A stretch of DNA of 64,000 nt from Candidatus Omnitrophota bacterium. Lineage in GTDB: Bacteria; Omnitrophota; Gorgyraeia; Zapsychrales; Zapsychraceae. The position numbers and the translations under genes are program-made. This document shows, piece after piece, positions 28,067-46,457 of the stretch. The stretch is taken from assembly GCA_050250375.1 (NCBI GenBank), contig JBFWOS010000001.1, forward strand, positions 1,086,361-1,150,360, written 5' to 3'. Every line of letters begins with the position of its first letter. Positions within the stretch are counted from its first letter, which is position 1. The notes under the pieces were generated by a model. It was not told where the DNA came from and made no database searches. It saw nothing but the letters and a program-made list of their open reading frames with translations.

Positions 28067-29575
28067 TTATGATCTTACGGGCATCGGACTGACAACACCG
28101 ACAGAATTTTCCATCTTTTCATTCTCTCCATGAATTAAAAACATAATTCCGTCTTTGACAAGCTTTAAACTCCCCGGAGAATTACTCAGATAATATGGCA
28201 GATAGTTATAGAGATGTGAAAACACAAAAGAAGGCCTGAATAATATTTTTTTATAGAATACCCGTTGGATCTTTTTGAGAGCGGATAAATCTATTTGGCT
28301 CAAATTAACAATCGGCTTCAAGTAATGATGCGGAGATTGTAATTCTGAACTTTTGTCTGAATACCGTTTATAATCCACCGATCCGGGATAAAGTGTGAAA
28401 AAATGGACTTTTACCAGATTCGGCTGGATTTCCTGGCATAAGTCTATACTTTGCTGGATATCATGCTCTGATTCCGTTGGGCTCCCGACGATAAACATCG
28501 CGCACGAAGCGATTCCTGCCCGTCTTACATTATCAAACGCTTCCTTGACCTTTTGCCTCCAACCTGCCTGAAAAGAAGCTTTATGCAGCACATTCACGAT
28601 TTTTTGGGAACCCGATTCAATCCCGAACAAGAGCAGTTCGCAACCGGCATTTTTCATCACGGTTAATAATTCGGGAGGAACCTCATCAACGCGCGCATGA
28701 CAGGCCCATTTGATTTTAAGATTACGCCTGACAATCTCTTCACAAATTTTTGTAACATGATCTTTATTAAGTACAAAATCGTCGTCCTCAAAAGAAACCA
28801 CGTTAACGCCTATCCGGGTCAGCCGTTCTATCTCTTCAACCACTTTTTCCGGGCTGCGGGTTCTCAGCTTACGCCCGTAACTCTTTCTTACTGTCGGTGA
28901 ACAAAATGTACAGGCATGCGGACAGCCTCGTGATGTGGAGATGTATCCCGACACCATTTTTTGTGAAACCCGCATGGGATAAATATATGGGTACTTCGTC
29001 AATTCATCTTTACTCCAATCCAGGACCGGCAATTCGTCAATGTCATCTAACTGAATCAATTCATTACTTTTTATCTGGTTATAGTATGCTTTGACTGACT
29101 CAAAATCTTCCGGTGAATTTAAACGGTTAATCAGCGCATTTAATTCGATTTCAAACTCACCCCGGATAATCACGTCAAATAATTCCGGCAGGCTCAAATA
29201 AAACCGGTGTTTTTCAGAGACATCCGACCCGACCGCAACAATCGGCAAAGCCTTCTTTTTCTTAATTTTTCGGCACAATTCGATGGCGGCCTCAGATGAC
29301 GGTGAACCAATGGATACAACTATTAGATCAATTGCCTGCTGTTGAATTTGGTCCATAAGTCCATCAAAAGTCGGAGGATCAACCCAATAATCCAAAAGAG
29401 TAATATTATATTGACCTTGGTCCTGTAAAATCTTCTGAGCATATTTTAAAGGCAGGCAAGGCGCATAATGAACCGGATGCTTAATCTTTTTTCGATGGGA
29501 GTTCCCTGCCCGTATAAGAAGAATATTTTGATATTTTAGGACGGTGTTATTTATTGGTTTCATGTTCGAAATCAT
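28067..29575 (-). CDS. B12-binding domain radical SAM protein
   Basis: STSRGCPHACTFCSPTVRKSYG. N-terminal B12-binding-like domain. Confidence 0.8.
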   Translation of the reverse strand: MISNMKPINNTVLKYQNILLIRAGNSHRKKIKHPVHYAPCLPLKYAQKILQDQGQYNITLLDYWVDPPTFDGLMDQIQQQAIDLIVVSIGSPSSEAAIELCRKIKKKKALPIVAVGSDVSEKHRFYLSLPELFDVIIRGEFEIELNALINRLNSPEDFESVKAYYNQIKSNELIQLDDIDELPVLDWSKDELTKYPYIYPMRVSQKMVSGYISTSRGCPHACTFCSPTVRKSYGRKLRTRSPEKVVEEIERLTRIGVNVVSFEDDDFVLNKDHVTKICEEIVRRNLKIKWACHARVDEVPPELLTVMKNAGCELLLFGIESGSQKIVNVLHKASFQAGWRQKVKEAFDNVRRAGIASCAMFIVGSPTESEHDIQQSIDLCQEIQPNLVKVHFFTLYPGSVDYKRYSDKSSELQSPHHYLKPIVNLSQIDLSALKKIQRVFYKKILFRPSFVFSHLYNYLPYYLSNSPGSLKLVKDGIMFLIHGENEKMENSVGVVSPMPVRS

Positions 29576-29743: not shown

Positions 29744-31636
29744 TTATTCAAAGGGTTTTCCCAATTCAAATCTGGACTTGAGATCATCATGATATATGCT
29801 TTTAGCCTGATAAAACATCTTTCGAGCCTTACCCTGATATCCCAATTCTTGATAAATAGAACCCAAACGATAGTAACTGCGGGCGTCATCTGGATTAATG
29901 TCCAGGGTTTTCTGAAAAAACTCTACAGCCAGTTCATTCTGCCCCATTGAGGAATAACATTGTCCGATTTGAAAATAGGCTCTATAGTGTTTTGGATCTA
30001 AGGTTATAACCTGATTGAAATGCCGGATCGCTTCGGTATAATTCTTTGTCCTCAAATTAATCATCCCTAAATAATATTGCGCCCGAAGATGATAACCAGA
30101 TGATTTGTCAACCTTCTGCAATTCTTCAAAAGCGGTTTTATCTAAATTATTATAATAGTTGATAACTCCCAGATAATAATGAATATATGGGGCATCCTCC
30201 TGGATCAAGGCGAGACTATACCGGTAATTCAATTCCTGGTTCTGGCTATAAAACAAATTATACGGATGTATAAAGTCCGGTTCGATTTCCATTGCCTTAA
30301 ACCATGCGTCCAGTGATGAATTAAAATCATTCTTCTGAATAAATAACCATCCCAGATAACTCAGTGTTTCAATGTCGTTCGGTGAGTTTCGCAATAATCT
30401 TTTAACCTCGGCAATAGCCGGATCAAACATTTTTTTGTCTTCGTACATTCTGGCCGCGATATAATCATCATCAACAAAAGCTGAAAACCGGCGCGGCGGA
30501 TAACCCAGCCGATCAATAGTCAGAATAAAAATAGCGGCATTTATAACCAGATAAAATCCGTAAACAAGAACAACGGATTTGCAAACCCGGGAACGCCTAA
30601 ATCCTTCTGACAACATTTTGGCTGTGAAACAAACCGCTGGAATCAATACAATCGCCGCCCACCAAAACTCCCCCCACTTTAAGCCTGGCAGACTAAAAAA
30701 ACTCAACACACTGAAAACGACCGCAAAAATAAAATATAAAAGTTTGTAAAAATCATTTTTTATAAATTTAACAGAATATACCGTTCCAACCAGTAGAATA
30801 ATCCCCGTCAGACCGTCAATAATTGCATCCTCCCAACTGATTCTTAACCGATAGTCGACTCCTTCCAGCCAGGATAATGGCGCGATCAAGAAGAAGTTTA
30901 GTGCCGTCCGGTTGGGGATCCAGGCCGGCTTCAAATACATCTCGGGATTAAAAATCAACTGAGAGCTGCCGTAAATCGTGACCCATAAAATCCAGGGTGA
31001 AATCGTAACAATAAAGAATAAAAATGTTAAATAAAACTCCTTTGTTCGAAACCACTCTCTTTTTTTATTATCCGTAAATAAGAATAAAATCAATGCCGCC
31101 GCTAAAAGCAGACTTACTCCTTTTGTCAGAAAGGCCAATCCGCCTAGCGGTCCCAACCACAAAAACAGCTTTCGGTCGTTAGTTTTCACCGCTTTATGAT
31201 AGATCCAGATGATCAGCGTCGTTAAAAACAGCAACAGGCTGTTATTTTCCGACTTTACAGAAACATGCATATGAAACTGATTGAACGCTAGTAAAAATAC
31301 GGCCCAAAGGGCTTCCTGTTTTCCAATTTCCAGAACAAGGACATAAAGGACAACCAGCGTCAGGATACCAAACAACAAATGAAAAAAACGGACACCTAAA
31401 TTGGATTCGCCCAAAAACAGTGTTCCTATCTTGGTGGCATAGACGCTCAACAGCGGATGTGTTTCATAAGGGTCCTCAGCAGGAAGATTCAAATGATCCG
31501 GATTAAACGAAATTGAACGCGCGATTAATATCCCCTTACGCTCATCTTCTGTAAAAGGCGCGTTGAGAAGCATAATGCGCAATAATGAACCGATGAAAAT
31601 AAACGCAGTTAAAGTTATGTAATGTCTTTTCATCAA
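29744..31636 (-). CDS. GT-C-type membrane glycosyltransferase fused to C-terminal TPR repeats (TMTC/PMT_2-like)
   Basis: N-terminal ~11 TM helices followed by ~250 aa of TPR-like repeats (YYLGVINYYNN..., AQYYLGMINLRTKNYTEAIRHF..., AYFQIGQCY..., SYYRLGSIYQELG). Confidence 0.55.
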   Translation of the reverse strand: MMKRHYITLTAFIFIGSLLRIMLLNAPFTEDERKGILIARSISFNPDHLNLPAEDPYETHPLLSVYATKIGTLFLGESNLGVRFFHLLFGILTLVVLYVLVLEIGKQEALWAVFLLAFNQFHMHVSVKSENNSLLLFLTTLIIWIYHKAVKTNDRKLFLWLGPLGGLAFLTKGVSLLLAAALILFLFTDNKKREWFRTKEFYLTFLFFIVTISPWILWVTIYGSSQLIFNPEMYLKPAWIPNRTALNFFLIAPLSWLEGVDYRLRISWEDAIIDGLTGIILLVGTVYSVKFIKNDFYKLLYFIFAVVFSVLSFFSLPGLKWGEFWWAAIVLIPAVCFTAKMLSEGFRRSRVCKSVVLVYGFYLVINAAIFILTIDRLGYPPRRFSAFVDDDYIAARMYEDKKMFDPAIAEVKRLLRNSPNDIETLSYLGWLFIQKNDFNSSLDAWFKAMEIEPDFIHPYNLFYSQNQELNYRYSLALIQEDAPYIHYYLGVINYYNNLDKTAFEELQKVDKSSGYHLRAQYYLGMINLRTKNYTEAIRHFNQVITLDPKHYRAYFQIGQCYSSMGQNELAVEFFQKTLDINPDDARSYYRLGSIYQELGYQGKARKMFYQAKSIYHDDLKSRFELGKPFE

Positions 31637-33261
31637 TCGGAACTTGTCCTTTTAAAAATGTACACACCCTCATTATCTTTGGAAAATTGACGGATATGTT
31701 TAAACGTATGCCAGAACAGTTCCGGCCTTGTTAGATCATACCAATAGAGATTTATTTGTTTCACCGGCATAAAATCGATCCCCCGGGAAGAATAATTCTG
31801 CATTATTTGTTCGGCTTGATAAAGATAAATCCCAAAAGCAACGATATAGTCAGGAACTTCTTCCCCTTTGAAATGAATCCGGGGCAAGTCCTTAAATTGG
31901 GTGCTTTCTTTTTCGATTTGCCAGGCGTACAGCGGCTCCGGCGCATGATACATTAACGGGTATGCCGCATAATCCGGGGTCACCCACAGATTGTCCTGCG
32001 AAGAAATATTCTGACGAATCCATTGAGCCGTTTCCCAGTACGCGCTGGGGGGAGGATTTAGAATTTCCAAAATGTAATTAAAAATCGTTGACCGAATCGT
32101 GCCCCGGGCAATGACCTGACTAAAAATCGTTTTATCATCAATACCGGCTAGAGACCCCCCGTGTAAAATGTTCGTGAAAAATGACAGAACAATGATACTC
32201 AAAGCTATTAATTTTGAGTGAACCCGAATAAGATGCACGCTCAGTACAGTGATCAAAATCCCCAAAGGAATTAAAGGAACCAGATAACGGACAAACGCCA
32301 CCGACAATAAACTAATCGGTTGGGGAGACATAACCGAAACCACCAAAACATAAATAAAGAAAACCTGAAAACAGCGCCATAACCGCCTGTCTTTATGAAA
32401 AAGCGCTAAACCAGGCGCTAATAATCCGATAATTGCCCCCACACCTAATTCACAACGGTTAAAATCCCTCCAATTCCATAAAAACAAAAATCCTTTTTCA
32501 ATAATCCATGGCTTTCTGGGGACACCCCAAACATCAATCGATAAAGGATTATAAAAACTGACGAGGACTGCTCCTAATACCAATTGACTGGTTAAAAACA
32601 AAATTATTTGTTTTCTGTTCCACGGTTTTTCTTTATTTCCCCAGAAAAAATAATCGGCCGTTAAACCACCCACAACCCCGGCATAACATAGATAATTCGA
32701 ACATAACAACAAAAAAGAAAACAGGCTCAAAATAACGGTTGTTTTTGTACGGTTATCGCGAAAATGATAAAAATACGCCACAAGGACAGAAAACAACACG
32801 GCTGGGCCAAAGTAACGGCACTGGCGAAAAAACAGAAAAAATGAAACATTCGTCAAAAAACCTAAACACATAAGGATCCAGGTTATCTGCGGGGCCTGGC
32901 TGCGTCTCAACCAGAATAAGACAACCCCTAACGTCACTAATCCACAAAATGCAAATGGCATCCTGGCCGCTAATGCTGATCCCGGCGCCTGCCCCACAAA
33001 CGGCGCTGCCAGATAAAAAGATAATGGCGGGATAAACCGATTACGAAAATCTTTCAATTCTACCCCGGAATTATACGCGACAATATTTTGCCCGATCTTA
33101 GCGCTTGTATCACCGGTCCTCCAGACGGACTGGGCAAATAAAGCGGTCGTCGCCTCGTCATCCCATAAGGCGTATGATCCCAGGTTACAAAATAATAGAA
33201 ATGAGGCCGCCAAGAGAACAACAATACTCAGGAAGACTTGGGTTTGATTATTTGGAGGCAT
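31633..33261 (-). CDS. GT-C membrane glycosyltransferase, ArnT/PMT (GT39/GT83)-like
   Basis: First periplasmic loop carries LWDDEATTALFAQ, the DE-containing signature of ArnT/PMT-type GT-C enzymes. Polytopic, 542 aa. Confidence 0.6.
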   Translation of the reverse strand: MPPNNQTQVFLSIVVLLAASFLLFCNLGSYALWDDEATTALFAQSVWRTGDTSAKIGQNIVAYNSGVELKDFRNRFIPPLSFYLAAPFVGQAPGSALAARMPFAFCGLVTLGVVLFWLRRSQAPQITWILMCLGFLTNVSFFLFFRQCRYFGPAVLFSVLVAYFYHFRDNRTKTTVILSLFSFLLLCSNYLCYAGVVGGLTADYFFWGNKEKPWNRKQIILFLTSQLVLGAVLVSFYNPLSIDVWGVPRKPWIIEKGFLFLWNWRDFNRCELGVGAIIGLLAPGLALFHKDRRLWRCFQVFFIYVLVVSVMSPQPISLLSVAFVRYLVPLIPLGILITVLSVHLIRVHSKLIALSIIVLSFFTNILHGGSLAGIDDKTIFSQVIARGTIRSTIFNYILEILNPPPSAYWETAQWIRQNISSQDNLWVTPDYAAYPLMYHAPEPLYAWQIEKESTQFKDLPRIHFKGEEVPDYIVAFGIYLYQAEQIMQNYSSRGIDFMPVKQINLYWYDLTRPELFWHTFKHIRQFSKDNEGVYIFKRTSSD

Positions 33262-34906
33262 CAGTCACGGAATCCTTAGGTTCAAACACATAATGAACAT
33301 TTATCGTGTGATGATAATATGACAGCTCAAAACATGGAAATATATGGGTTTGCTTATAATATTGGTTAATTGCATCCTTAAACCGGGGTGTCCAGCGGTC
33401 GTACTCCATCCCCACCCCTGTCATGATGATTATTCCAAACCGATGGTTCTTCAGATCGTTAATTATTCGGCCTTCATCCCATTTTCCATCTAGGGCCAAC
33501 TGAGCCATGGAGAAGGACTGATAGACAGACTCTTTCCCGTTTTGAAGGGCATATCCCATATATTCAGATAACACTTCCCCGGATGAGTCGCGAATCAATT
33601 CAGTCATATCGTTTGAGGCCTGACGGTATTCCGCTGACGGCAGGGTAAAATCAATCCGTTTGTGAAGAATTAATAGTTGTATAATGAGTAACATGAAAAA
33701 AAATAAACCCAGCAGATGGGCTTCCCATTTTAGAGCTCCCCTCTCGAACCGGCTTAAAAGTAAACCTGTCAACACGCAATTTGCGGCCCAGAACTCCAAA
33801 AAGTAATTTATGGATGCCCCCAATTTCCCCGCGGTTATTGTGACCAGCAGCGAAAACAACCAAAAGAACTCGGGAACAGACATTTCCCTTTTCTTAAAAG
33901 CGATAACGACTGACAAGGCCGATATCCCCGTCAAAACCCAATGTGTATTCCAGAACTCTTTAAACCATTTGAAAAAATCACTCAGCTCAAACGAACTCAT
34001 CGTATAAAATACAGTGTGCCGGATAAACTCTCCATGGGTAACACAATTAAGCGCAAAGAGAACCCCGGCCGTTATCCCAAAGAACAAAAGCAGAAATAAT
34101 TTAAAATACTCTACGTTTCGTTTCCTATCTTGTCCCTTTATAATGTTCCATCCGTACCAAGCCGCACAAGCTACCGGTGCGGCAATCATACTTTGACGTG
34201 AATATAACGCGGCGCTAAAGCATAATACGGATAAAAAAATCGCAACAAAATCCTTAGGCTGATCTTGATTTGTGACAAGACTAATCCCGGCCAGGACAAA
34301 CATCAAAGCAAACACATCAATCCGGCAAAGGACTGACCAACAGATCAACCAGCTGGACGTAAAAAAGATTAAACCGGCAATCAGAGCCGACACCTGCTGC
34401 CGGGTGACATTGTTAACAATCTTATAGATAAAATAACCGGACAAGACAGCGGCCCCGACCGAAAGCATTCGTCCCAGCATAATTTTCGGGCCAAAAACCT
34501 TAATCAGACCTGCCAGGATAAATTCGAAGAACGGCGTATAGTTCATGACGAAATACGGCTCCCGGTCAATGGGAGAATATATATTTTCTCCCTTTGACAA
34601 CAACCAGGCCCGATTAATGATCAACCCTTCCCCGACATCAAGATCATACGGATAGACGATCAAATTAAATGCATAGGCCGCATAGTTCAGGAAGTTATAC
34701 ACCAGAACAGCCGCCATAACCCATAAAAAAATTCTGACTATCCAGTTTTCCTGAGAAGGTGTTTTGGGTAATTGAGACATTCTAGTTTGATTTCCTGATT
34801 TAAACTCAATCCTACCAGACAATATTAATTCTGCTCTTGAAGAATCTCGGGTTTGCTTAAAAAGGGAACCGCTTGATTTTTGACTAAATTTATTACTGCC
34901 AAACAA
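33248..34906 (-). CDS. Polytopic membrane protein, putative GT-C glycosyltransferase
   Basis: Polytopic membrane protein with a soluble 45-aa N-terminus. A likelier start is the Met at ~34780 (MSQLPK...), which removes the 82-nt overlap with the upstream gene. Contains PYDLDVGEGLIINRAW in the first loop. Confidence 0.4.
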   Translation of the reverse strand: MFGSNKFSQKSSGSLFKQTRDSSRAELILSGRIEFKSGNQTRMSQLPKTPSQENWIVRIFLWVMAAVLVYNFLNYAAYAFNLIVYPYDLDVGEGLIINRAWLLSKGENIYSPIDREPYFVMNYTPFFEFILAGLIKVFGPKIMLGRMLSVGAAVLSGYFIYKIVNNVTRQQVSALIAGLIFFTSSWLICWSVLCRIDVFALMFVLAGISLVTNQDQPKDFVAIFLSVLCFSAALYSRQSMIAAPVACAAWYGWNIIKGQDRKRNVEYFKLFLLLFFGITAGVLFALNCVTHGEFIRHTVFYTMSSFELSDFFKWFKEFWNTHWVLTGISALSVVIAFKKREMSVPEFFWLFSLLVTITAGKLGASINYFLEFWAANCVLTGLLLSRFERGALKWEAHLLGLFFFMLLIIQLLILHKRIDFTLPSAEYRQASNDMTELIRDSSGEVLSEYMGYALQNGKESVYQSFSMAQLALDGKWDEGRIINDLKNHRFGIIIMTGVGMEYDRWTPRFKDAINQYYKQTHIFPCFELSYYHHTINVHYVFEPKDSVTDASK

Positions 34907-36630
34907 ATGGTCAATGCCGTGACGATTAATCCGATTATAAAAGTTTCAGGAAGATAGTATAATCTGATCTGATAAGTCCCGGGCGGCAACAGGACGGAAA
35001 TCAACCCATGGATTTCTGTTACTGGTGTTTTCTTACCAGCAACCTCCGCCTTCCATCCCTGATGATAATTTTGATTGATCATCAATAGATTCGCCTCATT
35101 CAAGTTAACCGAGAATCTTTGTTCGTTTGGTGAGAAATATTCTTGGTCAATTTCCCCGTACGGTCGGTCCAAATAAAATTCTCCCCTGTAATCCGGTTCC
35201 CCCATCACTTTCACATCTCCCTGCTTAAGTTGCATTACTTCGTAAGCCTCAATTATCCCGCCGTTACTAAGAAAAACGGGATATATTGAACTGTTCACCA
35301 AATAGTCCTCATAAAACAAAACTTCCCTGTATCTCTGAGCAAATATAATATTTTCCCGAAGCTGTACAGATTCAACTCTAAACGCATTCTGAAACACCGA
35401 AGAGTTTGATTCGTATAAATCATATGTAACCAACATAAAAAGAGCCATCGGTATAACAAATAAATAATTCTTATGTTGATTACTTTTCTTTTGCATGTAT
35501 TGGTCAAATGCATAAAACGTCATCCCGGCAATAATCGAAAGATAGAAAATAAACCCAAGGATAAACCTGGAGGGGACAGTCAAAGAATCATACACTGGAA
35601 ATTTGTGAAGCATGGACCAAAGGTTTAACAATGGCGAATTACCCATCGCAATGATGAACGTGATCAGACCAGAACAAATCAACGGCCATTGCTTTTCGAA
35701 AAACTTTATAGTCCCCCACATACATAAAATTAACGGAATATATCCGACGTAAGCCCCGTATTCATGCCATTCGTAAACCAATCCCATCCTGTAACCATCC
35801 AGCCAATTCATCATATCCAATATGCTTTGGTCAGGATTCAATAGCATATGAAACAACACGTTTATCGAAACGGCGCTGTCATCAGACATCACCCGCGGAT
35901 TATGTCCAATGAAATCCAACATCGGGATCAATTTAACGGCACAAAAGAGAAATGTCCCGGCAAGAATGACGCCCAATGATTTAACCGGGAACCATTGCCG
36001 CATCTGGATGGACTTTAAAAAAGCAAACAGAACTATAAAAACCATCATAATATTAAAAACATCCACACTTCCATTGAGCAGGATCAGGCTTAGAAAAATG
36101 ATTCCCCCCAAAATATTTTTTGATTCTTCTAAACTTTTTAAATAAAATAAAAAAAACCACGGGACAAACGCCATGGCCAGCCATTCTGTGTGCCCTTCTG
36201 TGAGATGCAGCGAGAACAAAGAAGAGCCCATAAAAATAAACGATGATAAATACCCTCCCATTCCCCGAACACCGAGATGTTTGGTCAAAATATACATTCC
36301 GCAGAAACCTAAAAAAAGATGCACAGTAATTTGTATTTTTAACCCCATGATCGGTCCAAAAAATAATACGAAGATGAAAAACGGAGAAAGAAACGGTGAA
36401 TGCGGATGGGCAAGCATAACATTCCCGCCATTCACATAAGGATTCCAGAGAGGAAATTGGTGATACGTTAAAATGGTTTTATGCGGAACCGCATTCCACA
36501 TAATAAATTGATCCCAGTCCTTCTGCCCGAACAGTTCGTTGTTTTCAAAAATGGAATGAGAAAAAATGATAGCAGCCAGTGCAAAAAGAAGCATCGTGAT
36601 GAAAAAATTATTTTTCATAAAGTTCAACAT
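34825..36630 (-). CDS. Polytopic membrane protein with C-terminal extracytoplasmic domain (YfhO/GT-C-like)
   Basis: ~12 TM segments followed by a ~170-aa soluble C-terminal domain. Sits in the GT-C array. Confidence 0.35.
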   Translation of the reverse strand: MLNFMKNNFFITMLLFALAAIIFSHSIFENNELFGQKDWDQFIMWNAVPHKTILTYHQFPLWNPYVNGGNVMLAHPHSPFLSPFFIFVLFFGPIMGLKIQITVHLFLGFCGMYILTKHLGVRGMGGYLSSFIFMGSSLFSLHLTEGHTEWLAMAFVPWFFLFYLKSLEESKNILGGIIFLSLILLNGSVDVFNIMMVFIVLFAFLKSIQMRQWFPVKSLGVILAGTFLFCAVKLIPMLDFIGHNPRVMSDDSAVSINVLFHMLLNPDQSILDMMNWLDGYRMGLVYEWHEYGAYVGYIPLILCMWGTIKFFEKQWPLICSGLITFIIAMGNSPLLNLWSMLHKFPVYDSLTVPSRFILGFIFYLSIIAGMTFYAFDQYMQKKSNQHKNYLFVIPMALFMLVTYDLYESNSSVFQNAFRVESVQLRENIIFAQRYREVLFYEDYLVNSSIYPVFLSNGGIIEAYEVMQLKQGDVKVMGEPDYRGEFYLDRPYGEIDQEYFSPNEQRFSVNLNEANLLMINQNYHQGWKAEVAGKKTPVTEIHGLISVLLPPGTYQIRLYYLPETFIIGLIVTALTICLAVINLVKNQAVPFLSKPEILQEQN

Positions 36631-38284
36631 ACACCCCGTCTTTTGTTTTTTTAAGGGTTTTCGTATAATGCATATCCATATAGCGCCTTACATTTTGTGA
36701 ATTTAATCCCAATATTTTGGATTCTACCCCATCATTATGCCAACTGGCAATAATCAACCATACCCGTTCAAAATTTTGATCAACGGTCGAATCATCCATG
36801 AGTAACATTGTTCCGTTCGGCAAAGGAACAAAGACTTGCATTTGATCGATTTTATCCTGAGGGATCATCCGCAACAAAGCGTTAATCTTTAAAAAACGAT
36901 TATCAAACCTCTGCATTAATTTCGGAAACATAAAAAACCGAAATTGTTCAAACGACAACGGTAGTTTTTCTCCTGAATGTTTTAACAAATATGAGAAAAC
37001 CATCACATACGCCTGGGTATCCGTAACGACTATCCGGTCTCCCTTTTTAAAATGATCTTTAACATAATCAAACTGCGACCAATAATTTTTTTTAGGGACG
37101 ACCCCTGTAAAATAAAGCGCACGGGCCGGATGGTCAAACATGTAATTCCTGTAATAATTATAAAGACAAGAAACCTGCAGAAGTAAAATACAAATGACCA
37201 CGAAGTTCTGGTCTTTTTTTGAAGTTATCCCCTCTATCCCTTTCGCGATCAGTAAAAAATAATATGGTGAGAAAATCAATAGTTGGCGGTTGATATATAA
37301 CGGAATAACTTTCAAAGATAAAAAATAAATTAAAATAATTGGAGCAACGCCCAAGAGTAAAATCAAAACCGCTTTTGTGCGGGATTCGTTAAAACACACG
37401 TAAAACCCCCAGAAAAACAGAATAAGAAATATCACCAGACCAATGCTATATTGAATAATTCCAGCCGAATATCCGAGGCTGAAAATCATCCAGGTGAACA
37501 AAAACATGCCGGGTGTAGGCGAAGGCAGCCAGAAGTCTTCCTTGACAAAACTGACCTGACTGCTAAAAACAGGAAGATAAAAAGAACTGACTGCGGCCAT
37601 GATGACCATCGCCAAAAACCATTTTTTCATTTTTGGTTTATTGTCCTTAAAATTCATGGCCACGACAAATATACTTAACAAAAAAACAGCATAATATGTA
37701 GCAAACAACGATAAAACACCCAATATGGAAAATCCGATCCAATATCGCCATTGATCTGTGTTCAAGGCACGAATGAACAAATAGACCATAGACAAAGTCA
37801 AAAATACGGCCAAAGAGTACACCCTGGCTTCCTGGGCATACCATATATGGACGGGACTAATAGCCATTACCAGCAACGCATAAACGCTTACCTTTTGATT
37901 AAAAAACAATCTGGACAATTGATAAAAGACTCCCAATGCCAAAATACTAAACATGACAGATAGAATGCGCAGCGATTCCCCGTCCCCAAAAAATCGGCTG
38001 ACCTGATATATCAAACCATAATAAAGAGTTGAATGTGGATCATTATGAATACGATCTCTAAAAATAGTAGACCCGTTCAGATGTGATAATTGAGCCATCT
38101 TGTGAATATTATCATATGAGAACAAATCCGTTCCCAATTCATCAAACCATAGGTCATAGGCATATAGTCCATAAACTCTTACAATTATTGCACATATAAA
38201 AATAATTAAAATTATAAATTTTGGCTGACGCATCTTCAAAATAATATTTTTATTATTATTAATATTTATCAATGTAATATACAC
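36608..38284 (-). CDS. GT-C membrane glycosyltransferase, ArnT/PMT-like
   Basis: N-terminal loop YAYDLWFDELGTDLFSY (DE motif as in ArnT/PMT). Polytopic with a C-terminal soluble domain. Confidence 0.5.
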   Translation of the reverse strand: MYITLININNNKNIILKMRQPKFIILIIFICAIIVRVYGLYAYDLWFDELGTDLFSYDNIHKMAQLSHLNGSTIFRDRIHNDPHSTLYYGLIYQVSRFFGDGESLRILSVMFSILALGVFYQLSRLFFNQKVSVYALLVMAISPVHIWYAQEARVYSLAVFLTLSMVYLFIRALNTDQWRYWIGFSILGVLSLFATYYAVFLLSIFVVAMNFKDNKPKMKKWFLAMVIMAAVSSFYLPVFSSQVSFVKEDFWLPSPTPGMFLFTWMIFSLGYSAGIIQYSIGLVIFLILFFWGFYVCFNESRTKAVLILLLGVAPIILIYFLSLKVIPLYINRQLLIFSPYYFLLIAKGIEGITSKKDQNFVVICILLLQVSCLYNYYRNYMFDHPARALYFTGVVPKKNYWSQFDYVKDHFKKGDRIVVTDTQAYVMVFSYLLKHSGEKLPLSFEQFRFFMFPKLMQRFDNRFLKINALLRMIPQDKIDQMQVFVPLPNGTMLLMDDSTVDQNFERVWLIIASWHNDGVESKILGLNSQNVRRYMDMHYTKTLKKTKDGVYVELYEK

Positions 38285-38355: not shown

Positions 38356-38586
38356 TTATTGGTAGCAAATGCCGGAGAAAACCGAAGCACCACCGGGCGT
38401 ACTTCCTGTATTCACCCAATTCGTGGTTGTCCCGCCACAGGCGGTAGGCCCCAAAGATGTCGCCAGCGATAACGTCGCGCATTGGGCTTGCACATCTTTC
38501 GGTTCAGACAGGACAACATAGCCAAAAAGACTTACAAAGACCATATATATGATTAGCAGCGAATAAATTATTCTATCTTTGTTCAT
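38356..38586 (-). CDS. Small secreted Cys-rich peptide, paralog 3
   Basis: 76 aa. Signal peptide ending VQA-Q. Mature peptide with 3 Cys, Thr/Gly/Ser-rich. Confidence 0.5.
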   Translation of the reverse strand: MNKDRIIYSLLIIYMVFVSLFGYVVLSEPKDVQAQCATLSLATSLGPTACGGTTTNWVNTGSTPGGASVFSGICYQ

Positions 38587-38601
38587 ATTAAAGCCCCTAG
38601 C

Positions 38602-38862
38602 TTAATTTTGAAAACATAAATATGCGTTAATCGGCACACCGTATGGTCCCGCAGTATATCCCATAATTTGTGGACCACTGGGCTGAGCCGTGCCCGGACA
38701 ACCTGGTATACATCCGGCACCTGTACAGGTTTCAATCGTTATTTGAAAACACGTAGTCTGGGCATTGACAATACTTGGTTTATATAAAACCGCATAAAGA
38801 AGCAAATAAACGAATACCATCGTCGTTGAAATGAACATATATATGGTTCGTTTTCTATTCAT
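38602..38862 (-). CDS. Small secreted Cys-rich peptide, paralog 2
   Basis: 86 aa. Signal peptide ending VNA-Q. Mature peptide QTTCFQITIETCTGAGCIPGCPG... with 5 Cys. Confidence 0.55.
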   Translation of the reverse strand: MNRKRTIYMFISTTMVFVYLLLYAVLYKPSIVNAQTTCFQITIETCTGAGCIPGCPGTAQPSGPQIMGYTAGPYGVPINAYLCFQN

Positions 38863-38876
38863 AAAAAATAACCTTT

Positions 38877-39140
38877 TTATGGATTAAAGCATAAACCTGT
38901 TTTCATCTGTACTCCATATACACCAGGGGTGTATCCACTATTGACAATATCCGATGATAATAAACCGTTCAATGGACATATAGGTGTACACGTTGCTCCT
39001 ATGCATGTTGCTAGGGTGATTCTATAACACACCTGCGCTTCAACTTCTTTTGGTTTACTCAAAAAAGAATATAAAAAAGTATACGCCGCAACAATCATCA
39101 CTGGAATAAATAAATAGATCAAACGCCTTTTAGACATCAT
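38877..39140 (-). CDS. Small secreted Cys-rich peptide, paralog 1
   Basis: 87 aa. Sec-type signal peptide (n-region KRR, h-region, cleavage-like VEA-Q). Mature ~52 aa with 5 Cys, Thr/Gly-rich. Confidence 0.55.
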   Translation of the reverse strand: MMSKRRLIYLFIPVMIVAAYTFLYSFLSKPKEVEAQVCYRITLATCIGATCTPICPLNGLLSSDIVNSGYTPGVYGVQMKTGLCFNP

Positions 39141-39219
39141 CTTCTCCTGAAAAAACCTATCAAAATTATATCATCCTGTATAAACTCTATCAAGCTCCGG
39201 AATCACATCATCAACCAAC

Positions 39220-40563
39220 TTAAGGTTGACAGGCTCCCCCCGGACAATTCGCAGCACCGGCACAACAATCACCATTATTTACCCCTCCGACACAAACACC
39301 GGTTTGACCCGGAAGACAACAATATGGTCCTCCTGGAGCCCCGCCGCCGACACAGTTATTACTACAGCAATCCGCAGGAACCGCACAATCAATTCCATTT
39401 GGAGTACAGGATCCAGCCGTATCAAACTGGCAACACCCTAGAACTTCTTGATTCCCTGCATTACAGCCACTTATATCTGCTACACCAGTTCCACACGCAT
39501 TCTGTTGAACAGCCATACAACAATATCCGCCCCCTCCAATCCATTCACACCAAGGAAAAAATTCACATCTGGCAAAACGATTGTCGATGGCCGGTGTAGG
39601 ATATAACAAAGCCACGTTTGTTAAAAAAGATGTGCATGGCGTGTGTTCTTGACAGCCGCTGAACGGATTCCAATTGCAGGCAGATCCATAAATCTGTTCA
39701 CATTGGTCAAAGGGTAAGCCCACGCAACCTGTTGGTTCAGGGGGGGCGGGCGGGGGTATTCGTACACCGCAATCACCGGCCGAAAGCGTACAATCTATAA
39801 TACACACACCTAAAATATTGATTGATCCCGACGGACATTCACAGGATGTTGCCCCAAAACCCGGAACAAACGAAGTCGCACATTCCCACTGACATTTGGG
39901 TGCACTCCCGACAGGAGCACTGCACTTACCTTCTTCAACAAAAACAACATTCTGACTGGCAGGCAAATTGATATTGTCTTGAGGACAGATGTCCGTAGCG
40001 TATTCAGGGTCTCCTGGATTGGGTGGATTTAAACATTGATTTAAACAATTTCTATTAAATTGGCATTCCACTCGGGTGGGATTGTTGTGATCAGGATCGC
40101 CCCCGCAAGAATATAAGGCAGGAACCTCATCGGCGGCACATCCCTGAGTACCGCAATTAATTGGCACAGGCAATTGAACGGGCGTGGTACAACAAGCCGG
40201 CGTTTCAGTACATAAATAATTTAAGCCGCCCGGAGGGGAATTATAACCCAGAGGATTACAAATCCATGCTTGAGTGGCTTCGTATTCTTCACATGTTCCA
40301 TAACCGCAACATGGCGGTAAACTGCATGGTTCTTGATAACTACAAGTCCCGGTAACATCGATGACTCCAGGGGGACTTGCCCCGATTGGATCTTGGAAGG
40401 AATCTGTGACAGAGTCCTCCCAGCCTTTGATATTGGCATTCCAAGAACGGATTACGTAAGGGCTCATGACATAAACCCCGGCCAGGACTAAAATAATCAA
40501 AAGGGCATATTCAATAATACTCTGCCCTTTTTCAGAAAACAATTTTTGAAAAAGCTTCCGCAT
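39220..40563 (-). CDS. Flp-pilin-like (class III signal peptide-like) N-terminus fused to a ~400-aa Cys/Pro/Gly-rich extracellular domain
   Basis: N-terminus KGQSIIEYALLIILVLAGVYV fits the Flp motif G-x4-EY followed by a hydrophobic helix. The rest has >50 Cys (CC, CxC, CxxC patterns) and low hydrophobicity. Confidence 0.5.
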   Translation of the reverse strand: MRKLFQKLFSEKGQSIIEYALLIILVLAGVYVMSPYVIRSWNANIKGWEDSVTDSFQDPIGASPPGVIDVTGTCSYQEPCSLPPCCGYGTCEEYEATQAWICNPLGYNSPPGGLNYLCTETPACCTTPVQLPVPINCGTQGCAADEVPALYSCGGDPDHNNPTRVECQFNRNCLNQCLNPPNPGDPEYATDICPQDNINLPASQNVVFVEEGKCSAPVGSAPKCQWECATSFVPGFGATSCECPSGSINILGVCIIDCTLSAGDCGVRIPPPAPPEPTGCVGLPFDQCEQIYGSACNWNPFSGCQEHTPCTSFLTNVALLYPTPAIDNRFARCEFFPWCEWIGGGGYCCMAVQQNACGTGVADISGCNAGNQEVLGCCQFDTAGSCTPNGIDCAVPADCCSNNCVGGGAPGGPYCCLPGQTGVCVGGVNNGDCCAGAANCPGGACQP

Positions 40564-40693: not shown

Positions 40694-43600
40694 CTATAGA
40701 CTTTGATGGCATTGAAGCAATACATCCGCTCCTAATTTCCAGCAATGATACAGGTCTCCCAGGAACGCCGCTGGACACGGAGCCCCTTCATTTATTGTAT
40801 AGCCGGGATACCCGGAGAAAGCCGCCCCGCAGGCAGGAGAGAATGGAATCAACTGTGTTGTTTGCTGAATTTTAATCCATTCCCCGTCCTCCGCACAAGC
40901 ACCCGCATCAACTGAATACCCGGAATTACATTGATATTCACATTTTGGAGCCCCGCAGGTAATCACCAGAGATCTGTTCATATTCGTCCCACCCGGGATA
41001 TTCGTATCATCCCCGGAACAATATGCTGCATTGGCCGGTACGCTACCGATACAAATATTCGGGTCGCACACTCCACCGCCGTCATGATATGTATCCGTGC
41101 AGATGTATTCACATTTCGTTCCAACCGTGCACGCAGGCACAACCGTTCGTGGCACGTCGGAATTGCCGGGGATATTAGCATCGTCTCCGGAACATATTGT
41201 TGTGTTTGCAGGCACAGCTCCTATACATTGGTTAAGATTGGTACACCCTGAACCATCGAAATTAAATCCGTCATCACAAATATATTCACATTTTGTTCCA
41301 GCAGTACAAGCTGCCACGACCGTGCGCCCGACATCAGCATTCCCCGGAATATTGATATCATCTCCGGAACAAATCGTCGCATTAATTGGAATAGCCCCTG
41401 TACATATATTTACATCACATGAAGCCCCTCCGAAATTATATCCATCATTACAAATATATTCACATTTAGTTCCAGCCGTACAAGCACCCACCAGAGTACG
41501 GGAAACATCAGAATTGCCCGGGATATTTGTTCCGTCACCGGAACATATGGACGCGTTGGAAGGAGTTGCTCCTGTACAGACATTGACATCACATTGGTTG
41601 GCTCCTCCGTCGTGATATCCGCTGTTGCAAGTATACTCACACAAAGTTACTGTACAAGCCGATACGGTTGTAACCGGCGTATCCGCCAATAATCCGGTGT
41701 TATCTCCCGGACAAATCAGTGCGTTCGCATCAGGTGTTCCTGTACACATGAACGGACGGCACGTGTTCGCGTCTTTGGTAAATCCCGGATCACAGGTGTA
41801 TTCACACTTTGTTCCGCCGGTACATGCATTCGCCACGGTCCGGCCGACATTTAAATTTCCCGGAATGTTTGTATCATCTCCGCTGCATAACGTCGCGTTG
41901 GATGGAACCGTTCCGGTACAAATATTGACGTCACAAACCCCACCGGACTCGTGGAATCCGTCATTACACAAATATTGACAATAAATCGGCAACGTACAAG
42001 CGCCTACGGCCGTGCGGACAACGTCCGAGTTCCCAGGAATTCCGGTATCGTCCCCTGCACAGAGTGTTGCGTTTGACGGAACAGTCCCCGTACAGGCATT
42101 TAAATCACACACCCCGGCGTCATAATTGTATCCGTTGCTGCAGGTATATTCACATTTTGTTCCAATCGTACAGACCGGAACCAAAGTTCGAGCCACATCA
42201 CTGTTCCCAGGAATATTCGTGCCATCCCCCGTACACAATCCCGCATTTGGCGGTACCGCCCCGGTACAGACATTGGCCACACAAATCGTTCCGTTAAAAT
42301 TGAAACCACTGCTGCAGGTATATTCACATTTTGTTCCGGCCGTACAAGCCGCCACCAAGGTTCGGGTAACATCACCATTACCGGGAATATTAATGTTATC
42401 CCCGATACACAAAGTTGCATTAGCCGGCGGCGCTCCGGTACAAACATTGGCATCACATTGATTAATTCCGGCGTCCTTATATCCGCTGTTGCATGTATAT
42501 TCACACATCGTTGCTGTACAGGCTGATACTGTTGTGACCGGCGTATCCGCCAGTAACCCAATATTATCTCCCGGACAGATGGTTGAATTCGAAGCCGGGG
42601 TGCCGATACAATCAAACGTTTCCACCACACAAGCTGTACCGGCGAGATTTAATTCATATCCGGGGTCACAAATGTATTCACACTTGGTCGCTGTACAAGC
42701 GCCAACAAGTGTTAAAGCTAAATTGGCCCTTCCGGTTATATTGGTCCCATCCCCCGCACACAATGTTGCATTAGACGGCGCTGATCCGGTACAAACATTA
42801 ACGTCACACTGGTTAACCCCCGCATCATGATATTCCGTGTTACACCGGTATTCACATTTTGTACCAAACGTACAGGTATTTACCGTCGAAACTGACACAT
42901 CCACGGTCAATCCTGCATTATCTCCAGCACACAGTACAGAATTCGGATCAGGCACTCCGGTACATGCCGGCGCACGACAATCGTTTCCATCAAGAACAAA
43001 ACCGGCATTACATTCATATTCACATTGTGTTCCGGCCGTACACCCTCCTGTAATAACGGCTGTTTTGGGAGTATTCGCCGGCAAATCATCATTATCATTC
43101 AGACAGATTGTGCTATTTGTCGGATCCGGGCCGGTACATAGATAAAGGGGAACACAGGTTATTCCACTGCGGACATAAAACGGCCGGCAGACATGCTCGC
43201 ACTTCACGGGCTGGGTACACGTATCGACTAAGGTATTCGGGGTGTCTGCTGTAAGGCCGGTATCATCCGGTTCGCATATGGTATCAAGATCATAATCGAC
43301 ACAGCACAAATTAGAATGGGCGGGTGCGGGACCGGTACATTGAAACAGAACACAGGCAGTACCATCACTGTAATATCCCGGGTCGCATAAATATTCACAT
43401 TTAGTTCCCGCTGTACATGCGCTGACCGGAGTCCGTGGAGTATCTGCACTTAAACCCGTATCATCGCCGGCACAGAGTGATGAATTAGTTGGAACAGCCC
43501 CGGTACAGACATACGGCACACAACTACCAGCGGAATAATAGTAACCGGCATTACAGCTATATTCACATTTTGTCGGGCCGGTACAAGAAGCAACAAGCGT

Positions 43601-46170: not shown

Positions 46171-46457
46171 AAAAAAACCTATCCTTCATCCAAGAAGAAT
46201 AGGCTTATCATTGACTATGATGCTGGCAACTGGCTATCCTAAAAAAACTAGGACCCTTTAGCTTTGTGCCCCACCTTCTCAGATGGTTTACCTTTTGCAT
46301 GTATTTTCTGTTCTCTAGTATATAAAGCATAACATACGCTCTTTTCATTTGCCAGATTACTTTAACATGGGTAATATTAGGATTGAACAAAAATGTCATA
46401 AATGTTATACTCGGTAAATCTTCGAAAAGTTCATAACTATAATCCTTTCAATAAAAA
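46171..46457. promoter_or_regulatory. Divergent intergenic region (likely promoters for the fibre gene and the cvpA-like gene)
   Basis: 287-nt AT-rich spacer between divergently oriented genes. No specific boxes verified. Confidence 0.3.

What the first reader, a model, noticed from the sequence alone, without database searches (positions are those of the whole stretch)
38356..39140. Three tandem paralogous small secreted Cys-rich peptides
Three adjacent genes encode 76-87-aa proteins with near-identical organisation: a basic n-region, an ~20-aa hydrophobic segment, AxA-Q signal-peptidase sites (VEA-Q, VNA-Q, VQA-Q) and ~45-52-aa Thr/Gly-rich mature parts with 3-5 Cys (e.g. TCTGAGCIPGCPG). 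They lie directly downstream of the Flp-like Cys-rich protein gene and at the end of the GT-C array. Candidate roles are minor subunits or caps of a surface fibre, secreted bacteriocin-like peptides, or O-glycosylation acceptor peptides. A RiPP-precursor role for the distant SPASM enzymes is conceivable but weakened by the Sec signal peptides.
Basis: seen in the sequence. Interest (0 to 1): 0.65.

Follow-up and report, generated by a model that had tools for sequence, protein, structure and literature searches.

The report
Exported mini-protein triplet tied to glycosyltransferase
Three tandem genes in an uncultured Omnitrophota bacterium encode tiny exported, cysteine-stapled proteins of an undescribed family that always come as a set of three directly in front of one membrane glycosyltransferase, so they are probably its dedicated substrates or partners, not fibre subunits or antibiotics.

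Summary
Three minus-strand genes (87, 86 and 76 aa) are true paralogs (E 3e-21 and 2e-9) under strong purifying selection (dN/dS about 0.07). Each has a basic N-terminus, a hydrophobic helix of about 22 residues, an AxA|Q site and a 42-52-aa uncharged Thr/Gly/Cys-rich part.

The family has no Pfam or NCBIfam match. An exhaustive profile search of 1.84 billion representatives found about 20 members. Every member carrying a source name is from Candidatus Omnitrophota.

In all 10 complete loci there are exactly three copies, directly upstream of one GT-C (PMT_2) glycosyltransferase subfamily. Three lineages lack the Flp-like gene. A conserved extended -10 promoter makes the triplet its own transcription unit.

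Ala at -1 occurs in 30/30 members. Three Cys are invariant, and the total is odd in 29/30.

The hydrophobic segment is far more conserved than the neighbours' signal peptides (0.54-0.74 against 0.26-0.33 identity).

AlphaFold gives helix, flexible linker and a three-stranded beta domain, with no PDB relative.

Best reading (about 40%): Sec-exported, disulfide-stapled mini-proteins that are dedicated acceptors or partners of the adjacent GT-C. The fibre link is lineage-specific. The RiPP and bacteriocin readings are unsupported. Function remains inferred.

The parts
38877..39140 (-). Gene A, 87 aa (86 aa if the second ATG is used). Residues 1-35 are a basic n-region, a hydrophobic helix and KPKEVEA. 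The predicted mature part QVCYR...CFNP is encoded by 38880-39035 and has 5 Cys.
   Evidence: AlphaFold pLDDT 81 with helix 2-26, linker, strands 39-46/65-69/77-85; orthologs
38602..38862 (-). Gene B, 86 aa. The pre-segment is residues 1-34 (…SIVNA). The mature part QTTCFQ...CFQN is encoded by 38605-38760 and has 5 Cys.
   Evidence: identical protein P0002 on a 1.2-Mb NCBI contig; dN/dS 0.066 vs L004
38356..38586 (-). Gene C, 76 aa. The pre-segment is residues 1-34 (…KDVQA). The mature part QCATL...ICYQ is encoded by 38359-38484 and has only the 3 invariant Cys.
   Evidence: AlphaFold pLDDT 81 with the same helix-linker-three-strand topology
39165..39193 (-). Sigma-70-type promoter-like site (TTGATA, 17 nt, TG-n-TATAAT; 11 of 12 matches) about 25 nt upstream of the gene A start. 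An AGGAG ribosome-binding site lies between them.
   Evidence: the -35 box and the extended -10 box are conserved in L001-L005, while the rest of the spacer has diverged
36608..38284 (-). First GT-C glycosyltransferase (558 aa; PMT_2 36.5 bits against a cut-off of 26.1). It has an invariant YDLW[FW]DE ('DE') motif after TM1. This is the one gene that follows the triplet in every lineage.
   Evidence: Relatives at >=40% identity that have upstream sequence, and L020 at 38%, carry the triplet; the other relatives at <=38% that were checked do not
29744..36630 (-). Four further large membrane-protein genes downstream (601 aa YfhO-like; 552 aa PMT_2; 542 aa with no family match; 630 aa PMT_2 + TPR). 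This is a lineage-variable extension of the module.
39220..40563 (-). 447-aa Cys-rich protein with a Flp-type N-terminus (G|QSIIEYALLI). It is a neighbour in this lineage only. Its C-terminal 69-aa Cys module is found fused to gene A in two other lineages.
   Evidence: 49 Cys, odd in all six orthologs

Best explanation
The three genes encode a set of small envelope proteins that work with the GT-C glycosyltransferase encoded directly downstream.

The proposed sequence of events is as follows.
1. Each precursor enters the inner membrane through its very hydrophobic N-terminal helix (Sec/SRP route).
2. The 42-52-residue C-terminal part folds on the periplasmic side into a three-stranded beta mini-domain held by disulfides.
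3. While still tethered, it is presented to the GT-C enzyme or enzymes, which use a polyprenyl-phosphate-sugar donor to glycosylate it. Ser/Thr is the more likely target; the spare Cys is less likely.
4. Signal peptidase I then cuts after the invariant Ala (AxA|Q) and releases a small, uncharged glycoprotein.
5. One unpaired Cys per chain allows covalent coupling between the three chains. In this lineage it may also couple to the Flp-like Cys-rich protein, which likewise has an odd Cys count.

What is shown: paralogy; purifying selection; an invariant set of three; invariant adjacency to one GT-C subfamily; a separate promoter; -3/-1 conservation; three invariant Cys with extra Cys gained or lost in pairs; the predicted helix-linker-beta architecture.

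What is inferred: export, cleavage, disulfides, glycosylation, oligomerisation.
For: (1) Gene linkage. In 10 of 10 complete loci there are exactly three copies, followed directly by orthologs of the 558-aa GT-C. In L013, L016/L096 and L020/L097 the upstream neighbours are tRNA/deaminase genes or GT9 + B12-radical-SAM genes, with no Flp-like gene. Among 80 metagenomic relatives of the GT-C, only L016-L018 (40-42% identity) and L020 (38%) carry the triplet. It was not detected in the others, some of which lack upstream sequence.

(2) Own transcription unit. An extended -10 promoter upstream of gene A is conserved.

(3) Export and cleavage signals. In 30 members, -1 is Ala in 30/30, -3 is V/A/S/T in 30/30, and the pre-segment is 30-41 residues, mostly 33-37. 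The +1 Gln can be lost (L020: I, H, H), so it is the cleavage rule that is kept. The site falls in the low-confidence linker of both AlphaFold models.

(4) Disulfide logic. Three Cys are invariant. The two extra Cys (CxxxxC) are present or absent together. The Cys count is odd in 29/30 members. In the same loci the giant neighbour is always even (158, 158, 158, 158, 236) and the Flp-like protein always odd (49, 49, 49, 51, 47, 47).

(5) The GT-C has the catalytic DE motif in loop 1 (PMC8698208). It sits in a sugar-donor context: DegT aminotransferase, SDR, GT2, GT9.

(6) Precedent. In P. aeruginosa the GT-C TfpW glycosylates pilin subunits (bioRxiv 10.1101/2020.04.19.049825). That tfpW lies directly next to the pilin gene is from my own memory.
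Against: No direct evidence of glycosylation, cleavage or disulfides exists. No Ser or Thr is invariant in the mature part: the TG-x-T-x-G motif degrades in distant members.

The hydrophobic segment is conserved at 0.54-0.74 identity, against 0.26-0.33 for the true signal peptides of two neighbouring proteins in the same genome pairs. By a crude hydrophobicity sum it is as membrane-competent as the retained Flp helix (scale values from memory). Both points fit a retained membrane helix better than a disposable signal peptide.

Dedicated substrates for a GT-C are unusual; most PMT-type enzymes are general. Two distant members have an even Cys count: L016 gene 3 with 8 and the L018 member with 6.
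Confidence: 0.4

Rival explanations
1. Retained membrane subunits. The hydrophobic segment is an uncleaved signal anchor. A, B and C form a three-helix membrane complex that is an accessory part of the GT-C machine, for example presenting the acceptor, controlling chain length or stabilising the enzyme. The small Cys domain sits on the periplasmic face.
For: The N-terminal segment is conserved about twice as well as the neighbours' signal peptides, and as well as or better than the mature part. The uncharged hydrophobic run is about 22 residues long in B and C. The crude insertion energy sum is -2.8 to +1.9, similar to the retained Flp helix at 0.05 and lower than the neighbours' signal peptides, which range from -1.1 to +5.8 with a mean near +2.9. 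The number three is strictly fixed and the GT-C adjacency is strict.
Against: Ala at -1 in 30/30 and a small residue at -3 in 30/30, across lineages with under 30% identity, has no reason to persist if the site is never cut. Conservation does not cluster significantly on one helix face (p = 0.06). I know of no bacterial GT-C with small obligatory subunits (own knowledge).
Confidence: 0.25
2. Fibre or pilus accessory subunits. The three proteins are minor subunits, adapters or caps of a surface filament built with the Flp-like Cys-rich protein, the 1420-aa Cys-rich repeat protein and the Peptidase_S74 fibre protein. They would be joined to these by disulfides.
For: They lie directly downstream of the Flp-like gene in this lineage. 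The C-terminal Cys module of the Flp-like protein is instead fused to gene A in L007 and L010 (51% identity over 69 aa, E 1e-17). Both the Flp-like protein and the triplet members have odd Cys counts. Tad pili are capped by heterotrimers of three small minor pilins with bundled N-terminal helices and many disulfides (PMC12075869).
Against: The triplet occurs without any Flp-like or fibre gene nearby in L013, L016/L096 and L020/L097. A Flp-like Cys-rich protein occurs without the triplet in Ca. Zapsychrus. There is no Gly at -1, no Glu at +5, no prepilin-peptidase motif, and no TadE or Flp Pfam match. A separate conserved promoter splits the triplet from the riboswitch-led fibre genes. The window holds no Tad machinery genes.
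Confidence: 0.12
3. Secreted antimicrobial or RiPP-type peptides: bacteriocin-like, glycocin-like, or thioether peptides matured by the radical SAM/SPASM enzymes.
For: The size, the Cys content and an odd Cys number resemble glycocins, which have two disulfides plus one glycosylated Cys (own knowledge). Two radical SAM/SPASM genes lie in the window at 19067-21245.
Against: The SPASM genes are 17 kb away, and none turned up in the annotated parts of L013, L016/L096 and L020/L097. There is no ABC exporter, C39 peptidase, immunity gene or double-glycine leader. The leader is a Sec-type hydrophobic helix. The mature parts are uncharged. The genes hold a fixed chromosomal position next to housekeeping genes under strong purifying selection, which is unlike bacteriocin loci. 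Extra Cys are gained and lost in pairs, as expected for disulfides and not for thioethers.
Confidence: 0.05

Closest known systems
Pseudomonas aeruginosa group IV pilin PilA with its GT-C glycosyltransferase TfpW (bioRxiv 10.1101/2020.04.19.049825)
   Same: A small exported protein with an N-terminal hydrophobic helix is paired with a GT-C enzyme that modifies it on the periplasmic side using a polyprenyl-linked sugar. That the two genes are adjacent in Pseudomonas is from my own memory.
   Different: The triplet members have no prepilin-peptidase site and no pilin fold. They come as three paralogs, are Cys-stapled, carry an AxA signal-peptidase site, and have no type IV pilus genes nearby. 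The GT-C is a PMT_2-type enzyme, and no similarity to TfpW was tested.
Actinobacterial and eukaryotic protein O-mannosyltransferases (Pmt/PMT, GT39; PMC8698208)
   Same: Pfam PMT_2 match above threshold and a DE motif in the first extracytoplasmic loop. Pmt acts on Sec-exported, Thr/Ser-rich proteins.
   Different: Pmt is a general enzyme with many substrates and no dedicated small substrate genes. Here the acceptor is unknown and could equally be a lipid or glycan, as for ArnT. No MIR domain was found, and profile search against solved structures found nothing.
Tad-pilus tip complexes: heterotrimers of TadE/TadF/TadG-like minor pilins (Myxococcus KilL/M/N; PMC12075869)
   Same: Three small related proteins encoded together, each with an N-terminal hydrophobic helix. 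Disulfide-rich. Next to a Flp-type protein in this lineage.
   Different: No prepilin cleavage motif, no TadE-like family match, much smaller (42-52-aa globular part). Found also where no Flp gene is near, and always tied to a GT-C instead of Tad genes.
Glycocins (sublancin, glycocin F); comparison from own knowledge
   Same: Peptides of about 40-50 residues with five Cys, of which four form two disulfides and one is glycosylated. A glycosyltransferase is encoded alongside.
   Different: Glycocins use a cytoplasmic GT2-type enzyme, a double-glycine leader and an ABC exporter, and they are variable accessory genes. Here there is a Sec-type leader and a periplasm-facing GT-C, and the genes are conserved.

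Membership tests
Sec signal peptide cleaved by signal peptidase I | Basic n-region, hydrophobic h-region, small uncharged residues at -3 and -1 | tested here: met
   K/R-rich n-region. -1 is Ala in 30/30 and -3 is V/A/S/T in 30/30 members. Pro near -6 in most.
Sec signal peptide cleaved by signal peptidase I | h-region short and poorly conserved, as typical for cleaved signal peptides; positive call by a trained predictor (SignalP) | tested here: inconclusive
   The uncharged hydrophobic run is about 22 residues in B and C and is conserved at 0.54-0.74, against 0.26-0.33 for the neighbours' signal peptides. SignalP and DeepTMHMM are not available here.
Flp / type IVb pilins (class III signal peptide) | Gly at -1 followed by xxxxE[YF] and a hydrophobic helix; Pfam Flp_Fap | tested here: not met
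   No Gly/Glu motif at the n/h boundary in any member. No Pfam hit even at E<=10. The neighbouring 447-aa protein does carry G|QSIIEY.
TadE/TadF/TadG minor pilins | TadE-like N-terminal domain (Pfam PF07811) with a prepilin-peptidase site | tested here: not met
   No Pfam or NCBIfam match.
Radical-SAM RiPP precursors (sactipeptides, ranthipeptides/SCIFF) | Precursor encoded next to a radical SAM/SPASM maturase, with a cytoplasmic leader peptide | tested here: not met
   The SPASM genes are 17 kb away, and none was seen in the annotated parts of the distant loci. The leader is a membrane-inserting helix.
Glycocins | Cytoplasmic SunS-type GT2, double-glycine leader, ABC transporter with C39 peptidase | tested here: not met
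   None of these is adjacent. The adjacent enzyme is a GT-C.
Bacterial lipoproteins | Lipobox [LVI][ASTVI][GAS]C at the end of the signal peptide | tested here: not met
   The first Cys follows A-Q-x(0-7), mostly x(0-3), with Gln or another non-lipobox residue before it.
Tat substrates / extracytoplasmic Fe-S proteins | Conserved twin-arginine motif; complete CxxCxxCxxxCP cluster motif | tested here: not met
   RR is not conserved (KDR, KEK, KTK and others). The weak PDB hit to the ferredoxin-like FwdG (E 6e-5) aligns a motif that lacks one Cys, and two of its Cys are absent from type C.
GT-C glycosyltransferase, PMT_2 type (for the linked 558-aa enzyme) | Pfam PMT_2 above the gathering score; acidic DE motif in the first extracytoplasmic loop | tested here: met
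   36.5 bits against a cut-off of 26.1. D48 and E49 are invariant in YDLW[FW]DE. The motif definition is from PMC8698208.
Resistin-like hormones (helix + disulfide-rich beta head, odd Cys) | Significant fold similarity | tested here: not met
   Top Foldseek hit for model A only (E 0.26, TM 0.41). Absent for model C.

The most novel reading that the evidence does not exclude
The triplet and its GT-C form a new kind of periplasmic protein-glycosylation module. Three Sec-targeted mini-proteins are held in the membrane by a sequence-specific helix that docks them to a dedicated GT-C. They are glycosylated, possibly on the invariant spare cysteine (S-linked) or as a protein primer for a glycan polymer. 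They are then cut free and disulfide-linked into a covalent heterotrimer that decorates the Omnitrophota cell surface, including the Flp-type adhesin in this lineage. This would be a Sec/GT-C counterpart of the cytoplasmic glycocin pathway, and the first case of a signal peptide acting as an enzyme-recognition leader for a GT-C.
Probability: 0.1. Interest if true: 0.75.

Novelty: new variant of a known kind. Interest (0 to 1): 0.45.

Why it matters
Omnitrophota are uncultured, ultra-small bacteria thought to live attached to or preying on other cells, and their surface biology is almost unknown. This is a phylum-restricted family of orphan mini-proteins, listed in public records only as 'hypothetical protein'. 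It has a strict copy number of three and a strict genetic tie to one GT-C glycosyltransferase.

If the proteins are the enzyme's acceptors, they give a defined, short, testable substrate for a bacterial PMT-type GT-C, a class whose acceptors are mostly unknown outside Actinobacteria. The unusually conserved 'signal peptide' and the conserved odd cysteine count also make this a compact system for two questions. How are membrane-tethered precursors handed to periplasmic modifying enzymes? How are covalent surface assemblies built?

If it is only a set of small envelope proteins, it is a modest addition to the list of lineage-specific surface components.

Tried and rejected
- **Family libraries.** Pfam, NCBIfam and a per-member Pfam scan at E<=10 gave no family.
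- **PDB by sequence profile.** The only hit was a ferredoxin-like subunit, FwdG (E 6e-5). I judged it a partial Cys-motif coincidence: one Cys is missing, two are dispensable, and there is no Tat signal.
- **Helical-face test.** Conservation in the hydrophobic segment did not cluster significantly on one face (p = 0.06).
- **Orthology tree.** A neighbour-joining tree resolves A, B and C as old clades only for the window-type and L007/L010 lineages. The distant triplets could not be assigned.
- **Genome scan with the peptide alignment.** It failed because there was no conserved stretch of 7 or more columns. The Flp-like protein alignment was used instead.
- **Exact look-up of the 87-aa protein.** It found nothing. 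Gene callers often miss gene A or the middle gene.
- **Literature.** Searches found no description of these proteins.
- **Other readings.** The lipoprotein, Tat, pilin and RiPP readings were rejected on their defining motifs (see the membership test).
Full report
**Observation**

Three ORFs lie head to tail on the minus strand: 38877-39140 (87 aa, 'A'), 38602-38862 (86 aa, 'B') and 38356-38586 (76 aa, 'C'). They are 14-15 nt apart. They are paralogs: A vs B is 44% identical over the full length (E 3e-21), and B vs C gives E 2e-9.

Each starts with a basic stretch (MxK[RK]R), then a hydrophobic run of about 22 residues, then KPxxVxA|Q. The C-terminal parts are 52, 52 and 42 residues. These parts are rich in Thr, Gly, Pro and Cys and almost uncharged, with 0-2 basic and 0-1 acidic residues.

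The genes are real. Against the orthologs in locus L004, non-synonymous differences are 0.07-0.10 per site while synonymous sites are near saturation (0.58-0.93).

**How big the family is, and whose it is**

There is no Pfam or NCBIfam match, even when 30 members are scanned at E<=10. A word-indexed search of 5.8 billion proteins found 12 relatives. An exhaustive HMMER profile search of 1.84 billion cluster representatives found 20, one of them a spurious repeat protein. A second search with a broader alignment added only a handful.

The only source names are 'hypothetical protein, Candidatus Omnitrophica'. A genome scan with the neighbouring Flp-like protein places the locus in Candidatus Omnitrophota MAGs. 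Two literature searches and two Omnitrophota genome papers gave no description of these proteins.

**Context in the window**

Almost everything in the window is on the minus strand. In the direction of transcription the order is:

- housekeeping genes (PurH, a Mur ligase, MnmE);
- a c-di-GMP-I-type riboswitch at 46221-46301;
- a 393-aa protein with a Peptidase_S74 fibre-chaperone domain;
- a 1420-aa Cys-rich repeat protein;
- the 447-aa Cys-rich protein with a Flp-type N-terminus, G|QSIIEYALLI;
- A, B and C;
- five large membrane proteins, four of which match GT-C families (PMT_2, YfhO, PMT_2, no match, PMT_2+TPR);
- a long glycoconjugate cluster with B12-radical-SAM, DegT aminotransferase, SDR, GDSL/TPR, GT2 and GT9 genes.

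The two radical SAM/SPASM genes are 17 kb from the triplet.

**What stays linked across lineages**

Close relatives (L001-L006, L008, L009) have the same order as the window. A more distant pair (L007, L010) keeps the order but has two Flp-like genes or altered domains.

Three further lineages carry the triplet without any Flp-like, giant or S74 gene next to it:

- In L013 a tRNA gene and a deaminase gene precede the triplet.
- In L016/L096 and L020/L097 a GT9 gene and a B12-radical-SAM gene precede it. In L016 these are orthologs (49% and 64% identity) of window genes that lie 30 kb away at 4475-5674 and 7767-9065.

In every one of the 10 complete loci there are exactly three copies. The next gene is an ortholog of the window's first GT-C.

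I ran the reverse test with a scan of metagenome contigs for relatives of that GT-C, which returned 80 loci. Only those at 40-42% identity (L016-L018) and L020 at 38% carry the peptides upstream. The peptides were not detected in the rest, by HMM or by a scan for short ORFs with a hydrophobic N-terminal stretch in the loci checked. Some of those loci lack upstream sequence. Conversely, Ca. Zapsychrus exili has a Flp-like Cys-rich protein but no triplet.

The core unit is therefore the triplet plus one GT-C subfamily. The Flp/fibre neighbourhood is a feature of this lineage only.

**A separate transcription unit**

A near-consensus promoter (TTGATA, 17 nt, TG-n-TATAAT; 11/12) lies at 39193-39165, about 25 nt upstream of gene A, with an AGGAG ribosome-binding site between them. 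Both boxes are conserved in L001-L005, while the rest of the spacer has diverged.

The riboswitch, by contrast, is conserved upstream of the S74 gene in L002, L003, L005, L009 and L010. This fits two units: a riboswitch-led fibre/adhesin unit, and a promoter-led triplet + GT-C unit.

**Export and cleavage**

In 30 members from 10 loci, -1 is Ala in 30/30 and -3 is V, A, S or T in 30/30. The pre-segment is 30-41 residues, mostly 33-37. The +1 Gln (26/30) is lost in L020 (I, H, H), while the AxA is kept. So the conserved feature is the signal-peptidase rule, not the Gln.

AlphaFold models of A and C (pLDDT 81 each) put the site in a lower-confidence linker. This linker lies between a helix (residues 2-26 in A, 2-25 in C) and a three-stranded beta domain.

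One fact argues against a plain signal peptide. Between the window and L002/L003/L005, the N-terminal segment of A, B and C is 0.56, 0.74 and 0.54 identical, while their mature parts are 0.54, 0.53 and 0.35. The true signal peptides of the S74 and giant proteins are only 0.33 and 0.26 identical, beside mature parts at 0.62 and 0.66.

The segment is also long and very hydrophobic, comparable to the retained Flp helix (scale values from memory). The helix therefore has a sequence-specific role. It may act before cleavage, for example in docking to the GT-C or in assembling the three chains. Or it may never be removed. A test for a conserved helix face was not significant (p = 0.06).

**Cysteines**

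Three Cys are invariant in 35-36 aligned members. The first lies 0-7 residues (mostly 0-3) after the cleavage site, one is in a P-x-C-P/G loop, and the last lies 0-5 residues from the C-terminus.

The two extra Cys of types A and B (CxxxxC) are absent together in type C and in two B-type members. Other extra Cys also come in twos. This is the behaviour of disulfide partners.

The count is odd (3, 5, 7 or 17) in 29 of 30 triplet members. The exception is L016 gene 3 with 8, and the single L018 member has 6. In the same loci the giant protein's mature Cys count is always even (158, 158, 158, 158, 236). The main Flp-like ortholog is always odd (49, 49, 49, 51, 47, 47).

My inference is that each of A, B, C and the Flp-like protein keeps one Cys without an internal partner. 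That Cys would be available for an inter-chain bond or another modification.

**A domain swap**

In L007 (P0015, 151 aa) and L010 (162-aa ORF; 155 aa from the likely start), the A-type protein carries a C-terminal Cys module. In the window this module forms the C-terminus of the Flp-like protein (51% identity over 69 residues, E 1e-17). The Flp-like proteins of those two loci have a different C-terminus there instead. This shows that A and the Flp-like protein work in the same compartment in these lineages and probably in the same assembly. It also shows that A tolerates a C-terminal extension.

**What it most likely is**

The only universal partner is a GT-C enzyme with a PMT_2 match above threshold and the catalytic DE motif in its first outer loop (PMC8698208). 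GT-C enzymes act on the outer face of the inner membrane with lipid-linked sugars.

The simplest model is that the three mini-proteins are membrane-tethered, fold and form disulfides in the periplasm, are glycosylated by the GT-C, and are then cut free. A known parallel is the Pseudomonas pilin and its GT-C TfpW (bioRxiv 10.1101/2020.04.19.049825). I rate this model at about 40%.

The main rival, at about 25%, is that the helices are never removed and the three proteins are membrane subunits of the GT-C machine. This explains the helix conservation but not the perfect AxA conservation.

A fibre-subunit role tied to the Flp-like protein (about 12%) is supported only in this lineage. It fails the pilin motif tests, although Tad tip heterotrimers of three minor pilins are a tempting analogy (PMC12075869).

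Bacteriocin or RiPP roles (about 5%) lack every defining neighbour. They also conflict with the fixed chromosomal position and the paired gain and loss of Cys.

**Limits**

No predictor of signal peptides, no multimer modelling and no model coordinates were available. The larger fold libraries were offline. Foldseek against the PDB found no significant relative for either model, and a weak resistin match for A did not recur for C. A profile hit to a ferredoxin-like protein (E 6e-5) reflects a partial Cys motif and is not taken as homology. Orthology of A, B and C could be resolved only for the nearer lineages. Export, cleavage, disulfides and glycosylation are all inferred.

**Verdict**

This is a real, conserved, previously undescribed family of exported mini-proteins restricted to Omnitrophota, organised as a strict triplet coupled to one GT-C glycosyltransferase. 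It is best filed as a new variant of the 'small exported protein plus dedicated GT-C' theme. Its function is unproven and its interest moderate.

Noticed in passing
window 46221-46301 (-): A c-di-GMP-I-type riboswitch (best model RF03167, the GGC variant: 59.5 bits against a gathering score of 59) lies about 50-75 nt upstream of the Peptidase_S74 fibre gene. The standard c-di-GMP-I model hits the same position in L002, L003, L005, L009 and L010. The fibre / giant Cys-rich / Flp-like unit is therefore probably controlled by c-di-GMP or a related ligand.
   Followed up: partly
window 39220-40563 (-); L007 8612-9964 and 10001-10456; L010 9995-11341 and 11360-11848: The 447-aa Cys-rich protein has a Flp-type prepilin N-terminus (G|QSIIEYALLI) but no Pfam match. 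Its last 69 residues, a 12-Cys module, have moved to the C-terminus of gene A in two other lineages (E 1e-17). Its Cys count is odd in all six orthologs (47-51).
   Followed up: partly
window 40694-44956 (-): A 1420-aa secreted protein with 158 Cys, built of about 20 repeats of a C..GD..GL..C..KCEY.C unit (weak Sushi match). The mature Cys count is even in all five orthologs (158 or 236), in contrast to the odd counts of its neighbours.
   Followed up: partly
window 29744-31636 (-): The fifth large membrane-protein gene joins a PMT_2 domain to C-terminal TPR repeats. From memory, this is the same domain order as eukaryotic TMTC protein O-mannosyltransferases, which hints at a protein acceptor.
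   Followed up: no
window 5682-29575 (-): Repeated paralogs of B12-binding radical SAM enzymes (28067-29575, 17643-19070, 16224-17627, 11702-13195, 7767-9065) and of GDSL-lipase/TPR proteins (21486-22886, 14937-16220, 13208-14671, 5682-7058) are interleaved with DegT, SDR, GT2 and GT9 genes. Together they form an unusually large envelope-modification cluster. The GT9 and one radical SAM gene sit next to the triplet in other lineages.
   Followed up: partly
window 38877-39140 (-); L001 9693-9983; L096 4340-4677: Automatic gene calls often miss one of the three genes. Gene A is not called on the Logan contig, the exact 87-aa product is not on record, and the middle gene is not called in L096. 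Public counts of this family are therefore underestimates.
   Followed up: yes
window 38880-39035 and family alignment A5: The family profile gives an E 6e-5 hit to the ferredoxin-like subunit FwdG (PDB 7bkb_L). The hit aligns C-TG-xx-C-xxx-C-P with the 4Fe-4S motif C-TG-C-xx-C-xxx-C-P. It is probably coincidence: one ligand Cys is missing and there is no Tat signal. It remains unexplained.
   Followed up: partly
L013 2489-3853: In the distant locus L013 a T2SSE-family secretion ATPase gene (454 aa) lies 2.5 kb upstream of the triplet, separated from it by a histidine kinase, a deaminase and tRNA genes. Its relevance is unknown.
   Followed up: no
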